IMG/VR virus record: IMGVR_UViG_3300037483_000582
Location: 1 to 39,057 of that record
Direction: 5' to 3' (one strand)
From: a virus
Lineage: Duplodnaviria > Caudoviricetes
Length of the DNA stretch: 39,057 nt
How positions within the stretch are numbered: position 1 is the first letter of the stretch; each line of letters begins with the position of its first letter. Below are positions 23,455-37,486 of this stretch, piece after piece. The notes below the pieces were generated by a model. That model was not told where the DNA came from. It saw nothing but the letters and a program-made list of their open reading frames with translations, and did not search any database. The position numbers and the translations under genes are program-made.

Positions 23455-23717
23455 ACTTCTATGAAGCATGGCTGGTAATGCGCGATGGTAAAAGATGTAA
23501 GATTATTGAGCGTCCACTCCAGATTTTTTGGCTTGAAGAATTGAAGTGCGATAAGCCCTTTTATCTAGATAAAGCCAAAATGGTTTATTTATCTAATGAA
23601 CATGGCTGGCAATTAAAAGTTGTTCATAGAGATGTGTCTTATATGGTATCGGATGTTTGGTGTGATGAGGCGATGATTGATGCTTTTATGGGATTTAACT
23701 GGGAGATTGTTGAATGA
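23451..23717 (+). CDS. DUF2829/Tad2-like protein, copy 1
   Basis: MNFYEAWLVMRDGK...NWEIVE. Confidence 0.65.
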   Translation: MNFYEAWLVMRDGKRCKIIERPLQIFWLEELKCDKPFYLDKAKMVYLSNEHGWQLKVVHRDVSYMVSDVWCDEAMIDAFMGFNWEIVE

Positions 23718-24598
23718 ATGAATTTGAAATGAACTCTAAAATTGCAAAGCGTGTTTTTACTGGATTAATCTGCTTCATGTTGCTCTTTATAGCATGGGGA
23801 ATGAAGCCTTGGTATATTGTACAACCCGGAGAAACTGCTATTCAATTGCAATTCGGTAAGCCAAAGAGAGTAATCAATGAACCTGGTATTTATCTAAGGA
23901 CTCCCCTTATTGATAAGATTGTGTACATAAATAATAGAATTTGCAGAACATCTATTGAAACGCGCTCATTATCTAAAGACTTACAAACGGTAGATATAGG
24001 GGCAGTATTAAATTACAGAATAAACAAAGGGTATGAGATCTTTAAAAGTGTAGGTTCGGATTTTGAGACCATTATTATTAATCCATTTGTCCAGGAATCT
24101 CTTAAAGCTGTTGTGGCCAAGTTTACGGCTGAAGACCTTATACAGCAACGGCACAAAGCTTGTGATTGGGTTAATAATGAGCTGAAAGAGCGGTTGGCAT
24201 TACACAGTATAGTACTTATTGATTTCAACTTTATTCATCTGGATTTTACCAAAGACTTTATCCATGCAGTAGAACAAAAACAAATAGCTGAACAAGCAGC
24301 AAAAACAGTGCGTAATCTTACGGAGAAGGTAAAAGAAGAATCAGCGCAAGAACGCCTGAAATCAGATGCCCTAGCTTATGCATATATTACTGACGCAAAG
24401 GCCAAGGCCGAAGCTGTGCGAGTACGTGCCGATGCAGAGGCATATGCTCTTAAGGCAAAGCGTGAGTCTATTACGGCTAATCTGATTACTCTTAAGAAGG
24501 TAGAGGCACTTACTCATGCAGTTGAGAAGTGGAATGGTCAACTACCGCGCATTGTTACTGGAAGTAATCCATTTCTCGAAATAACTGACGGGGTTTAA
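23714..24598 (+). CDS. SPFH/prohibitin (band 7) membrane protein
   Basis: N-terminal TM; SLSKDLQTV, LKAVVAKFTAEDLI..R, AVEQKQIAEQ, EKWNGQLP. Confidence 0.92.
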   Translation: MNEFEMNSKIAKRVFTGLICFMLLFIAWGMKPWYIVQPGETAIQLQFGKPKRVINEPGIYLRTPLIDKIVYINNRICRTSIETRSLSKDLQTVDIGAVLNYRINKGYEIFKSVGSDFETIIINPFVQESLKAVVAKFTAEDLIQQRHKACDWVNNELKERLALHSIVLIDFNFIHLDFTKDFIHAVEQKQIAEQAAKTVRNLTEKVKEESAQERLKSDALAYAYITDAKAKAEAVRVRADAEAYALKAKRESITANLITLKKVEALTHAVEKWNGQLPRIVTGSNPFLEITDGV

Positions 24599-26122: not shown

Positions 26123-26638
26123 ATGAAAATCATAGAAGCACTAAAGAAAATAAAAGATCTAAACAAAAAAGCGGATGATCTTAAATTAAAGATAGCGACT
26201 TATTGCGCTGACTTGGATTGTGAGACGCCGACATATCCCGATCAAAAGCGTCAAGTAGCCGAATGGCTGCAAGCTCACGGCGATGTCGTTAAAGAAATCC
26301 TTCGCCTTCACTACTGCATACAAAAGACTAATATCATGACTCAAGTCTCTATTCTCCTGGGAGACAAGAGCGTGACAAAGTCTATATCTGAATGGATTCT
26401 GCGACGCCGTACCCTTGCATCGTTGCAGCAATCGGCTTGGAAGGCGTTGACTGATAAGAATCTTAAAGAGTCCTATGCTAATCAGTTGACGCCTAACAGT
26501 CCCCAGGCAATCATTAAGCGTAGATTATATTATGATCCGATTGAGCGTGACCGCATGATAGAACTTTATCGTTCAGAGCCCGCGATAGTTGACGCTACGC
26601 TTGAGGTTATTAACGCAACGACAGAACTTATTGAGTAG
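26123..26638 (+). CDS. DIP1984-family-like long helical protein
   Basis: MKIIEAL..., IQKTN..T, SISEWI.RR, YDP.E.D, C-terminal VDATLEVINATTELIE match the recalled MKLAEAL...I..TN...lD..iq..N..TEL.E pattern. Confidence 0.6.
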   Translation: MKIIEALKKIKDLNKKADDLKLKIATYCADLDCETPTYPDQKRQVAEWLQAHGDVVKEILRLHYCIQKTNIMTQVSILLGDKSVTKSISEWILRRRTLASLQQSAWKALTDKNLKESYANQLTPNSPQAIIKRRLYYDPIERDRMIELYRSEPAIVDATLEVINATTELIE

Positions 26639-26644
26639 GCTAGG

Positions 26645-26699
26645 CGGACCGCATGCCTCCCCGTCCTACCGATCGGGAGTTTAAAGCGGCGGTCTTGCC
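26645..26699 (+). ncRNA. Structured element 1
   Basis: GGACCGC/GCGGTCT outer stem with inner CTCCC/GGGAG. Confidence 0.45.
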
Positions 26700-26707
26700 G
26701 GTATAAA

Positions 26708-26772
26708 TTGGGGTCCTTGGTTTTTGTATCCTTCTAGGTAGTACTTAACCGACATGCAACACGGGGCCCCAA
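26708..26772 (+). ncRNA. Structured element 2
   Basis: TTGGGGTCC/GGGCCCCAA outer stem, TTGGTT/AACCGA inner stem. Confidence 0.45.
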
Positions 26773-26783
26773 AAACTTGAAAT

Positions 26784-26861
26784 CTCAATTAGATCAGCAT
26801 TGGTGAGGCTGGGGGCTTTGCGGCTCTGTAATACTTGCGGTTCGACTCCGCCTGATTGAGC
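26784..26861 (+). tRNA. Atypical tRNA-like element (anticodon unclear, TTG in loop)
   Basis: 8-bp acceptor CTCAATTA/TGATTGAG, T arm GCGG-TTCGACT-CCGC, D-like CAGC-ATTGGTGAG-GCTG; non-canonical anticodon arm, no CCA. Confidence 0.5.
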
Positions 26862-26877
26862 TTTCTTTCTTTGAAAT

Positions 26878-27212
26878 GTAAGCCGATGAAGAGACATAAA
26901 AACCGGTAATTGTATCTTCTGTAGGAAGTTAAGCTACATAAACATTAGCTCAGTTGGTTAGAGCACTACCTGAGGACGGTGGAAGTCGCAAGTTCGAGTC
27001 TTGCATGTTACATTAGGATTGTTAATCCTGCCAAAACACAGAATAAAGTTAGCAAGTATCAAGATTCAAGATTTTAAGGTTTAATTATAATAAGTCTCAC
27101 GTATCATGAATCAAGAACGTACCCCGAAGCGTAATTGCTCGGGAATGACCTAAATAAGTTTTTTATACAGTTTTAAGCGGATCTTCTTAGGGTTCCTCTT
27201 TAGGCGGCTTTC
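26878..27212 (+). ncRNA. ~330-nt structured ncRNA candidate
   Basis: Ends pair (AAGCCG/CGGCTT, AAGAG/CTCTT); contains a tRNA-like domain, hairpins and a periodic tract; no coherent ORF. Confidence 0.65.
26941..27009 (+). tRNA. tRNA-like domain embedded in the ncRNA (pseudo-tRNA/mimic)
   Basis: TA-GCTC-AGTTGGTTA-GAGC D arm; CTACC-TGAGGAC-GGTGG; GCAAG-TTCGAGT-CTTGC T arm; only 5-bp acceptor, no U33, no CCA. Confidence 0.7.
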
Positions 27213-35596: not shown

Positions 35597-36640
35597 ATGG
35601 ACGGAACTATAATACAATCCGGCAGGTTTACTTCTACCGGTGTTGCGGTATCATTGCCGATTCGCTCTGATCTTGATTGGATGTGGGTATATAACTATAC
35701 ACAAATTGCTACTACACAGGCAACTGGACGCGGTGCTAAATTCTATTGGCAACGCGGTTTAGATGCTAATGACGGTTTTGTATATTATAAATCTGATACT
35801 ACTGATGTTATTAATCTTGATACATCAGCTAGTCTTTCTGTTGGTGGCTTTACGCTTATTGATTCATCAATTAATGATCCTGAAGCTCAACTTACGGCAA
35901 CTGCGGTATCGAGTGCTGCGCCTGCTCAAGTTAGCATAGTAGCGCATGGTTATTCGACCGGTGATATTGTGCGCATCTATTCATCAAATCAGATGCCACA
36001 AATCAATGGTATGGAATTTACCATTACCGTTAACGGTGCAAACACATTCTTGTTAACTAACTTGGATACAACGGCAACGACCGGTACATGGGTTGCTTCT
36101 ACGGCTGCATTTGCATGCCGTATACCATTCAATCCAATATTTTATCCACGCGCACGCACGATAACTAATATTGGAACCGGTGCAACAACACTGGTAACCA
36201 TGGCAGTAACTCATGGATTCACGGTCGGTCAAAAAGTAAGAATATTGGTACCTTCCAATTTCGGCATGTCATCCAGCATTAATAATCAACAAGCAACGAT
36301 TACTGCTGTTGGTACTGCTGATGAATCCGGCTTTACCAATACTATTACTCTTGATCTTGATTCAAGTGCTGCCGGCACATTTGCTTGGCCGTCTAATGCC
36401 ACAACCAAGCTCACACAAGCACAAATTGTGCCAATGGGCGAAGATACGGCAATAGCATTGGCCCAAATGCCACCGCTTGATGTTCTTGCAGATGCGACCG
36501 TAAACCGTGCATATATCGGAATACGTTTGTCATCGGGAACAAGAAGTCCTGCTGGTTCAGAAGTTGATGTTATCTATTGGGTAGCGGGTAAATCTTATTC
36601 CGCTAATCAAATAACACCGATACTTGCATCACAGATGTAA
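35597..36640 (+). CDS. Virion structural/decoration protein with two HG(Y/F)xxGxxVRI beta-barrel repeats
   Basis: AHGYSTGDIVRI and THGFTVGQKVRI; follows MCP. Confidence 0.7.
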   Translation: MDGTIIQSGRFTSTGVAVSLPIRSDLDWMWVYNYTQIATTQATGRGAKFYWQRGLDANDGFVYYKSDTTDVINLDTSASLSVGGFTLIDSSINDPEAQLTATAVSSAAPAQVSIVAHGYSTGDIVRIYSSNQMPQINGMEFTITVNGANTFLLTNLDTTATTGTWVASTAAFACRIPFNPIFYPRARTITNIGTGATTLVTMAVTHGFTVGQKVRILVPSNFGMSSSINNQQATITAVGTADESGFTNTITLDLDSSAAGTFAWPSNATTKLTQAQIVPMGEDTAIALAQMPPLDVLADATVNRAYIGIRLSSGTRSPAGSEVDVIYWVAGKSYSANQITPILASQM

Positions 36641-36642
36641 TT

Positions 36643-36672
36643 AAATGGGGAGGGGTCATCTCCTCCCCATTT
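36643..36672. terminator. Intrinsic terminator after capsid/decoration genes
   Basis: AAATGGGGAGGGG/CTCCTCCCCATTT. Confidence 0.65.
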
Positions 36673-36673
36673 C

Positions 36674-37117
36674 ATGAAGGAAATAATGGCAAGAGGAAGA
36701 AAAAAAATGGTTAAAGAAGAAGTAGTTATGAATCACGAAGCGATTGTTGATATACCGAATGTCAGCATAAAACCTACCGTCATGGGCCCAAAGACCAAAG
36801 TAAGGGCAATATTCCGTAATCTGGAAACACCGGGCGCTAATATAACGTTTACATTCGGCACAACCAGAGATATGACCACCTACTTTATGGAAGATGGCAA
36901 GATTTATACCGTGACGCTTGAGTTGCTTGAGCATCTCAACAAGGGCTGTCGTTATCCCGTACACGCATGGCGTGTTAATGAAGACGGAACCAAGTCTTCG
37001 GTAATTGGTAAGAATGTACGACGCTTCAGCATGCAGCCCGTAGAGTTTGTTGATCCAAAATATTATAAAGACTGGGATGAATCTGAAATGGTTGAACCCT
37101 CTTATATGGTTAGATAG
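36674..37117 (+). CDS. Hypothetical head-completion protein (start may be ATG 36686)
   Basis: AAGGA SD before MARGRKK; position. Confidence 0.65.
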   Translation: MKEIMARGRKKMVKEEVVMNHEAIVDIPNVSIKPTVMGPKTKVRAIFRNLETPGANITFTFGTTRDMTTYFMEDGKIYTVTLELLEHLNKGCRYPVHAWRVNEDGTKSSVIGKNVRRFSMQPVEFVDPKYYKDWDESEMVEPSYMVR

Positions 37118-37120
37118 GAA

Positions 37121-37486
37121 ATGGGTTTCCGTTATGCGGTTGCTGACCCGACATTCCAGCCGGCATTAAGGCTTATAAACGCGATAACTAATGCACATGC
37201 AGCAGTTGTTACAACATCATTTGCCCACAATTATCTTGATGGAATGATTGTTCGTTTTTATGTGCCTGATGGTTATGGAATGCGTCAGATAAACCAAAAA
37301 ACGGGAACTATTATAGTTTTGGGGTCGGATTCATTCAGTGTAGATATAGATTCACTTTCTTTTGACCCATTTCTTTTGCCGAATCCGACCCCTGTACAAG
37401 AGGCATCTGTTGTGCCAATTGGCGAGATTAACTCAATACTCAGAGCGGCAACACGCAATGTTTTGCCTTCGGGTACATTTGAATAG
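37121..37486 (+). CDS. Small structural protein with the same beta-barrel repeat as 35597
   Basis: ITNAHAAVVTT..AHNYLDGMIVRF.VP..YGM.QIN. Confidence 0.7.
   Translation: MGFRYAVADPTFQPALRLINAITNAHAAVVTTSFAHNYLDGMIVRFYVPDGYGMRQINQKTGTIIVLGSDSFSVDIDSLSFDPFLLPNPTPVQEASVVPIGEINSILRAATRNVLPSGTFE

What the first reader, a model, noticed from the sequence alone, without database searches (positions are those of the whole stretch)
27041..27115. 7-8 nt periodic NNTYAAG tract inside the long ncRNA
Seen: AATAAAG TTAGCAAG TATCAAG ATTCAAG ATTTTAAG GTTTAAT TATAATAAG TCTCACG TATCATG AATCAAG, about ten degenerate units with G at 27048, 056, 063, 070, 078, 094, 101, 108 and 115. The tract looks unpaired and is bracketed by hairpins (AGGATT/AATCCT before, CCCG-AGC/GCT-CGGG after). 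Knowledge: the Bacillus TRAP ring binds spaced NAG repeats one per subunit. Inference: a multivalent landing strip for a ring or filament of the upstream protein, with repeat count possibly matching subunit number.
Basis: partly seen in the sequence, partly recalled or inferred. Interest (0 to 1): 0.78.

Follow-up and report, generated by a model that had tools for sequence, protein, structure and literature searches.

The report
Ten-slot AAG ruler in phage RNA
A phage carries a folded non-coding RNA of about 330 bases with ten evenly spaced short units (five AAG, one gap, four AAG) beside a small gene of unknown function; the pair recurs in over a hundred related loci and, in a distant form, in phage T5, and the protein likely assembles on the units to form an uncatalogued RNA-protein particle that would display tRNA look-alikes.

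Summary
The tract is real (lag-7 autocorrelation 0.54 against 0.31 in shuffles, p 5e-5). It lies in a ~330-nt RNA (26880-27210) after a DUF6847/DIP1984-like gene of a complete 39-kb phage. The RNA's 3' core lies on the gene's strand in 123 of 136 untruncated homologous loci, upstream in 11, so it likely acts in trans. Across 104 loci the tract has a fixed layout: slots 1-5 and 7-10 end in AAG in 68-96 loci each, slot 6 in 20, flanks in 3 and 0; length 71-80 nt. Spacer letters vary and show no pairing covariation, while the flanking helices covary strongly. An optional insert holds tRNA-like pieces with many anticodons, some permuted. The protein is predicted to form a homodimer. A homologous family (profile E 1e-8) includes T5.085, also followed by folded RNAs with 7-nt tracts. 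Best reading: a protein landing strip in a two-part particle; binding, subunit number, expression and purpose are untested. It is not a TRAP or Y RNA member. No Rfam family and no paper found. This scan noted the same system before on other DNA (seven notes).

The parts
26123..26638 (+). DUF6847/DIP1984-like gene, 171 aa, mostly helical; predicted homodimer
   Evidence: Pfam PF20935 E 0.0012 and NCBIfam NF038048 E 7e-7, both under the curated cut-offs; model pLDDT 94; best structural match PDB 3KDQ, Foldseek E 8.9e-4, VIA Z 12.4, rmsd 8.7 over 148 residues; self-association score 0.74 against 0.00
26785..26861 (+). degenerate tRNA-like element outside the conserved RNA
   Evidence: ARAGORN at lowered threshold only; not found at default
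26866..26876 (+). TTTCTTTGAAA, boxA-like motif just before the RNA (label recalled)
   Evidence: sequence; a like motif precedes 23 of 88 RNAs
26880..27210 (+). conserved structured non-coding RNA, about 330 nt (244-430 nt in relatives)
   Evidence: covariation, span, no Rfam family other than tRNA
26880..26895 (+). 5' arm of the closing helix P1, running into the conserved AGAGAUAAAAAC motif (26890-26903)
   Evidence: pairs with 27192-27210; 9 pairs above the tree-based null maximum
26903..26915 (+). 5' strand of a predicted pseudoknot with the 3' loop 27164-27180
   Evidence: own-locus duplex mean -11.8 against -7.7 kcal/mol for mismatched loci, 68 loci; single-column covariation just under the null maximum
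26939..27012 (+). tRNA-like insert (called Pro, anticodon AGG): intact D and T arms, 5-bp acceptor stem, G where tRNAs have U33, no CCA
27015..27029 (+). small hairpin before the tract; variable among relatives
   Evidence: sequence
27042..27115 (+). ten-slot tract: five AAG units, a deviant sixth slot (GTTTAATT), four more units (two degenerate here)
27123..27143 (+). hairpin after the tract; sequence and length vary among relatives
   Evidence: sequence
27142..27210 (+). conserved 3' core: GAAUGWCC motif, stem 27150-27154 with 27186-27190, pseudoknot loop, GGSUUCC motif, 3' arm of P1

Best explanation
The tract is a fixed-length row of ten slots inside a conserved, end-paired phage RNA that travels with one small helical protein gene, and it likely serves as the single-stranded landing strip on which copies of that protein assemble into a particle that would present the RNA's interchangeable tRNA-like insert, most likely as a decoy or bait for host enzymes that cut or handle tRNA. 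Shown: periodicity, the 5+1+4 layout, fixed length, free spacer letters, covarying helices around the tract, linkage to the gene on either side, a variable insert. Predicted: a two-fold protein dimer. Inferred: each AAG is read by one protein site; slot 6 is a turn or crossing point, since longer hairpins are tolerated only there; five dimers would give ten sites, nine of them filled by AAG. Odds: particle of this protein on this tract about 0.7; closed oligomer whose size matches the slot count about 0.35; tRNA-decoy purpose, given a particle, about 0.45.
For: AAG by slot in 104 loci: 94, 89, 78, 75, 88, 20, 95, 68, 79, 96; 3 and 0 in the two flanking slots; ten-slot length 71-80 nt, mode 75; 7 or more AAG in 81 of 104 tracts against 0 of 520 shuffled parses. 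AAG5 to AAG7 is 15-17 nt in 74 of 104; of 14 loci with a gap over 20 nt, 8 show an inserted hairpin at slot 6 by eye. Spacer identity within a tract 0.33, between loci 0.30-0.35, so the units are not recent duplications (TRF finds only 2.1 copies). No pairing covariation in the tract (top G 21) against G up to 169 in the flanking helices (null maximum 53); G-U 93 against A-C 31 marks this strand. 3' core in 104 of 147 unique loci within 900 nt downstream, and in 19 of the 32 remaining untruncated loci elsewhere on the same strand, 11 upstream and 8 further downstream. No third partner: the largest neighbour cluster covers 8 of 146 loci. Self-association score 0.74, best control 0.00; the mark was reached by 20 of 30 solved homo-pairs and 1 of 23 single chains; runs agree in at least 91% of contacts, partner pLDDT at least 85. 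tRNA-like inserts in 32 of 88 RNAs with over 20 anticodon labels; D-then-T order in 22, permuted T-then-D in 3, T arm only in 13. The homologous T5.085 family (probability 95.6, E 1.2e-8) has folded downstream regions with 7-nt tracts, significant in 8 of 10.
Against: No binding, expression or stoichiometry data. RNAfold does not single the tract out as open (unpaired 0.45 against 0.41 for the rest). The dimer prediction may pass by likeness to the solved 3KDQ, four copies lie outside the tool's calibration, and no confident contact beyond the dimer was listed. About half the RNAs (50 of 88) have no recognisable tRNA arm motif, so tRNA mimicry cannot be the only job. Among 12 canonical DIP1984 loci a lag-7 signal was significant in 4, and in only 2 (L184, L192) inside the apparent RNA. 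In B. halodurans TRAP, 19 triplets go with 12 subunits (PMC3184956, passages), so a repeat count need not give a subunit count. The parse forced ten units, the core model was built from 42 of the loci it then scored, and loci are related by descent.
Confidence: 0.55

Rival explanations
1. The particle forms as proposed, but its job is to shelter or deliver RNA cargo (a protected tRNA precursor, or a tether for repair or processing enzymes such as RtcB), in the way Y RNA tethers Ro60 to a nuclease, not to act as a decoy.
For: Some inserts look like near-complete tRNAs and a minority end in CCA (by eye); permuted inserts have the YrlA layout (PMC4201824, passages); one weak family member is followed by a tRNA-splicing-ligase gene (L185); T5-type pairs often lie at tRNA clusters.
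Against: Many anticodons begin with A or have loops of the wrong size, and acceptor stems are short; no ligase or Ro60 cluster recurs among neighbours of 146 loci.
Confidence: 0.17
2. A toxin-antitoxin or addiction module like type III systems: the protein is harmful when free and the repeat RNA soaks it up.
For: Two-part, mobile and patchy: over the cut-off in 3 of 201 genomes in each of three phylum samples and 0 of 151 in a fourth; canonical members on 370 plasmid records; tight gene-RNA linkage.
Against: No nuclease-like fold among structural matches; no credible PADLOC match (1 of 49 members each for two unrelated models); units of 7-8 nt, not the long tandem units of type III antitoxins (recalled); an elaborate pseudoknot and cargo site would be unexplained.
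Confidence: 0.1
3. The tract is a sponge for a host RNA-binding protein (Hfq, CsrA, ribosomal S1 or the anti-Shine-Dalgarno end), and the neighbouring protein binds elsewhere on the RNA.
For: AAG fits the A-R-N triplets read by Hfq (recalled); G follows AAG in 432 of 782 cases.
Against: GGA count is 0 or 1 in 60 of 104 tracts and AGGAG/GGAGG occurs in 5 of 104; the fixed 5+1+4 layout across very different hosts, and a changed motif in the T5 family, fit a co-inherited reader better.
Confidence: 0.1
4. A cis-acting switch like TRAP attenuation: protein bound to the tract changes termination or translation of the adjacent gene.
For: The RNA ends a few bases before the methylase start here and just before the partner gene in 11 loci.
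Against: The RNA lies before or after the gene and up to about 2 kb away; downstream genes are unrelated; its two ends pair with each other; no terminator-like site found.
Confidence: 0.05
5. A DNA element (iterons, a partition site or a single-strand origin) read by the protein.
For: Short phased repeats beside a small protein gene; no RNA data.
Against: Period 7-8 does not match the DNA helical repeat; long-range covariation with G-U excess on one strand and tRNA arms inside the element.
Confidence: 0.03

Closest known systems
DIP1984 / DUF6847 family (NF038048, PF20935; PDB 3KDQ)
   Same: Same fold by two structure searches; weak profile matches; canonical genes are also followed by a short end-paired region with shared motifs (by eye and RNAfold).
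   Different: Below both curated cut-offs; a mainly phage branch about 20 residues longer; no function or RNA partner is given for the family in what I could search; the periodic tract is clear here and weak in most canonical loci.
TRAP (MtrB) with trp leader RNA
   Same: Evenly spaced triplets ending in AG with free spacer bases, as would suit one site per subunit.
   Different: TRAP reads 11 NAG triplets 2-3 nt apart in an mRNA leader with an 11-subunit ring activated by tryptophan (PMC3184956, passages); here the period is 7-8, the protein is helical and unrelated, and the tract sits in a free-standing folded RNA.
Ro60 (Rsr) with YrlA Y RNA
   Same: A protein gene with an adjacent RNA that joins a protein-binding part to a tRNA-like domain, in either arm order, also in phages (PMC4201824, passages).
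   Different: No TROVE protein, no Rfam Y RNA match, a repeat tract and pseudoknot that Y RNAs are not described with, and the tRNA-like part is optional.
Large phage RNAs near tRNA genes (GOLLD, ROOL; recalled) and the T5 'stable RNAs' of unknown function
   Same: Phage-borne, ornate structure, boxA-like motif and tRNA neighbours.
   Different: No Rfam match; a dedicated partner gene; the T5 region after T5.085 is not among the misc_RNA features of AY543070.

Membership tests
DIP1984/DUF6847 | score over the curated profile cut-off | tested here: not met
   19.2 of 27 bits in Pfam, 29.5 of 70 in NCBIfam
DIP1984/DUF6847 | 3KDQ-like fold over the whole chain | tested here: met
   top hit in both searches; TM 0.53-0.59; Z 12.4 against 8.3 for the next row, rmsd 8.7 over 148 residues: a distant relative, not a cut-off member
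TRAP-leader system | TRAP/MtrB protein | tested here: not met
   no such Pfam or NCBIfam match; model is mostly helical with a different best match
TRAP-leader system | NAG triplets separated by 2-3 nt | tested here: not met
   units are 7-8 nt long
TRAP-leader system | position in the leader of a regulated operon | tested here: not met
   either side of the gene, unrelated downstream genes
TRAP-leader system | ring whose subunits each bind one triplet | not testable with these tools
   only a dimer interface was predicted; RNA cannot be included
Ro60-Y RNA | adjacent TROVE-domain gene | tested here: not met
   none among 30 window proteins scanned (about 30 of the larger ORFs, not all); no recurring neighbour in 146 loci
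Ro60-Y RNA | match to an Rfam Y RNA model | tested here: not met
   only tRNA matched in the window and 21 locus scans
Ro60-Y RNA | tRNA-like domain with D and T arms | tested here: met
   present here and in 25 of 88 by motif; not specific to Y RNAs
Functional tRNA-Pro gene | 7-bp acceptor stem, U33, CCA | tested here: not met
   5-bp stem, G at 33, no CCA
Type III toxin-antitoxin | endoribonuclease toxin and long tandem pseudoknot repeats (recalled) | tested here: inconclusive
   no family or fold match to a nuclease; toxicity not testable

The most novel reading that the evidence does not exclude
A widespread phage ribonucleoprotein class, present in T5 and hundreds of cultured phages, in which an RNA template counts out the protein subunits (five dimers threaded on a 5+1+4 ruler, closed by an end-to-end helix and a pseudoknot) and carries a plug-in slot for tRNA mimics that phages swap to match their host's tRNA-cutting defences.
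Probability: 0.25. Interest if true: 0.93.

Novelty: categorically new. Interest (0 to 1): 0.8.

Why it matters
It would give a function class to an uncharacterised protein family found in phages, plasmids and bacteria, add an RNA class absent from Rfam, and offer a rare case of an RNA whose repeat count is held fixed as a ruler. Relatives of T5.085 occur in 744 phage records, so the idea can be tested directly in T5 and laboratory E. coli. If the inserts are decoys, it bears on the old question of why phages carry tRNA-like sequences.

Tried and rejected
Chance or slippage repeat: rejected. Coding origin: no listed ORF of 70 aa or more overlaps the tract and the period is not a multiple of three. 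Fold-back of the tract around slot 6: RNAfold draws it in this window but no covariation supports it; a short stem in slots 6-7 occurs in 22 of 72 loci against 1-8 of 72 for other slot pairs, without covariation. Twelve-slot reading: an AAG 13-15 nt after slot 10 occurs in only 26 of 104. CsrA and Shine-Dalgarno motifs: not enriched. Rfam: nothing but tRNA, also at E 1. Sequence search of PDB with the alignment: 0 hits; PHROGs and PADLOC: nothing credible. ESCRT-III rows at Z 8 are level with unrelated helical hairpins. The window protein and two divergent members found no cultured phage by tblastn; the link came through T5.085. T5.081 next to T5 RNAX is not a homologue. The nucleotide core models did not find the T5 RNA. 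Papers: DIP1984 gave 1 unrelated clinical paper, DUF6847 0, 3KDQ 0, five accession terms 0, three multi-term searches 0, 'septicolysin' 34 of which the 20 listed are genome surveys (listings only). A 2016 review of RNA-repair systems that I recall mentioning Band-7 genes with tRNA-like RNAs is not held. No supplements were read; a table in one could list this RNA. Rows dropped: 14 duplicate loci, 11-17 truncated loci depending on the test, 16 loci without a 5' module match, 32 tracts with irregular parses, and one canonical locus that did not parse (L269).

Full report
Setting. The window is a complete 39,057-base virus record with direct terminal repeats; it encodes a terminase, a P22-like portal and a capsid protein. 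The tract lies in a 578-nt gap between a 171-aa gene (26123-26638) and a cytosine methylase (27217). The 171-aa protein matches DUF6847 and DIP1984 below their cut-offs; its model (pLDDT 94) has PDB 3KDQ as best match in two searches.

Observation. Letters, G positions and flanking hairpins are as reported. Lag-7 autocorrelation is 0.54 against 0.31 in dinucleotide shuffles (p 5e-5), and no other 75-nt stretch of the window has as long a phased AAG chain. The claim that the tract is unpaired is not backed by folding energy: unpaired probability 0.48 here, 0.45 against 0.41 over 88 loci, and tract energies equal those of shuffles.

Relatives. The protein has 557 relatives in one search and 584 clusters at 50% identity in another. 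Scans gave 160 loci (80 viral, 80 metagenomic), 147 distinct with the window. A profile of the RNA's 3' core, built from 42 of them, matched 104 of 147 within 900 nt downstream. Of the other 43, 11 are cut short; 19 of the last 32 have the core elsewhere on the same strand, 11 upstream of the gene and 8 further downstream; most of the remaining 13 show a tract with a diverged core. Independently of the model, a chain of six or more phased AAG occurs in 99 of 130 loci on the gene's strand and 1 of 130 on the other. Neighbouring genes do not recur: the largest cluster covers 8 of 146 loci. Gene and RNA therefore form a two-part cassette whose order can flip.

The RNA. In 88 loci with both end modules, 12 column pairs exceed the largest value of 12 tree-based null simulations; all are canonical-rich and define a helix joining 26880-26895 to 27192-27210 and a stem 27150-27154 with 27186-27190. 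G-U pairs outnumber A-C 93 to 31, marking this strand. The segment after the AGAGAUAAAAAC motif pairs with the loop of the 3' stem: own-locus duplexes average -11.8 kcal/mol against -7.7 for mismatched loci, and 10,000 permutations never passed -8.9 (68 loci); shared base composition within a locus may add to this, and single columns fall just under the null maximum, so the pseudoknot is likely rather than shown. Between the 5' module and the tract is an insert of variable length. ARAGORN at lowered stringency calls a tRNA-like piece in 32 of 88, with over 20 anticodon labels, many beginning with A or with odd loops. By motif, 22 run D arm to T arm, 3 are permuted as in YrlA, 13 have a T arm only and 50 have neither. 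The insert here has a 5-bp acceptor stem, G33 and no CCA. Rfam gives only tRNA.

The tract. Parsed into ten units in 104 loci, AAG ends slots 1-10 in 94, 89, 78, 75, 88, 20, 95, 68, 79 and 96 loci, and the flanking slots in 3 and 0; total length is 71-80 nt. The parse forces ten units, but shuffled regions reach 7 AAG in 0 of 520 trials against 81 of 104 real tracts, and the sharp edges are not forced. The unit is NNN(N)KHAAG. The distance across slot 6 is 15-17 nt in 74 of 104, and 8 loci carry an extra hairpin exactly there (by eye). Spacer letters are no more alike within a tract than between loci and show no pairing covariation (72 clean tracts). What is kept is the triplet, its spacing and its number, which is the signature expected of sites read by a repeating protein surface.

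The protein. With four copies the complex predictor scored 0.74 against 0.00 for the best control (mark reached by 20 of 30 solved homo-pairs and 1 of 23 single chains; contacts agree at least 91%; pLDDT at least 85), with the same residues on both sides, that is a two-fold dimer. The pass may reflect likeness to 3KDQ, and four copies are outside the calibration. Invariant residues at both termini (M1, K2, K8, K11, E152, D157, E161, N164) are not in the listed interface and are candidates for RNA or higher-order contacts (inference).

Wider family. Following an earlier scan note, I checked T5. T5.085 was the best hit of both profiles in a 40-kb stretch, though weak (E 0.004-0.02); an alignment of ten relatives matches the divergent alignment at probability 95.6, E 1.2e-8 over the first 109 columns. 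Relatives are in 744 phage records. The 363 nt after T5.085 fold with an end-to-end helix (z -4.9), and 8 of 10 such regions hold a significant 7-8-nt chain, mostly of AAA followed by G or C rather than AAG; two carry permuted tRNA arms by eye. Canonical bacterial DIP1984 genes are followed by shorter end-paired regions with shared motifs, but a lag-7 signal was significant in 4 of 12 and clearly inside the RNA in 2, so the strict tract is not universal.

Mechanism. Most likely the RNA is made as its own folded species, closes its ends, and offers the tract to dimers of the partner protein; five plus four AAG sites with a tolerant crossing point would suit a closed assembly such as five dimers. 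The insert is then held out as cargo. Since its anticodon is free to vary while D and T arms persist, an elbow-shaped bait for host tRNA nucleases or tRNA-handling enzymes is my preferred purpose, with cargo protection or enzyme tethering next. Binding, assembly size, expression and purpose are all inferred.

Comparison and novelty. It would work like TRAP in reading spaced triplets and like Ro60-Y RNA in pairing a protein gene with a tRNA-mimic RNA, but fails the membership tests of both. I read passages of PMC4201824 and PMC3184956 and search listings for the rest; ten searches found no description, within a library that lacks most subscription journals and with no supplements read. This scan has noted the same system on other genomes at least seven times; those are unchecked notes and not independent support. 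What this window adds is the slot-by-slot 5+1+4 layout with hairpin insertions confined to slot 6, the flipped gene-RNA order, and a profile-level link to T5.085.

Noticed in passing
window 23714-24598: Band-7/SPFH gene 1.5 kb upstream of the cassette; T5 also has one (T5.080) a few kb from T5.085, and a Band-7-like cluster appears near 4 other loci.
   Followed up: no
window 26640-26866: Further hairpins and a degenerate tRNA-like element (26785-26861) between the stop codon and the conserved RNA; relatives often have tRNA genes or other structures here.
   Followed up: partly
L185:1932-2721: A weak family member with its own structured RNA is followed directly by a tRNA-splicing-ligase (RtcB-like) gene.
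   Followed up: partly
L177-L179, L182-L184, L189-L192, L270, L271, first 230 nt after the stop: Canonical DIP1984 genes in bacteria and plasmids are followed by a 150-200 nt end-paired region with shared GCGAG and ACCAC/ACUAC motifs; no Rfam match in the three scanned.
   Followed up: partly
L274:20849-21567 (T5 rnaX): A 719-nt 'stable RNA with unknown functions' between T5.081 and tRNA-Arg, with an internal duplicated stretch; separate from the RNA after T5.085.
   Followed up: no
L004 and L005, tract region: Tracts that depart from the 5+1+4 layout, with a longer middle section.
   Followed up: no
L169, L238, L239, L248, L258, L259: Homologous genes with no tract or RNA motif in the first 500-900 nt downstream; upstream not checked for these.
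   Followed up: no
L162: A close relative lies on a 39-kb contig binned with a Candidatus Babeliales genome, a possible hint to the host group.
   Followed up: no
control genomes: Deinococcus radiodurans holds a DIP1984 gene over the cut-off, a tractable bacterial host for the canonical branch.
   Followed up: no
window 35597-37486: Two phage proteins with weak matches to the FCCH domain of ubiquitin-activating enzyme E1 (below cut-off).
   Followed up: no
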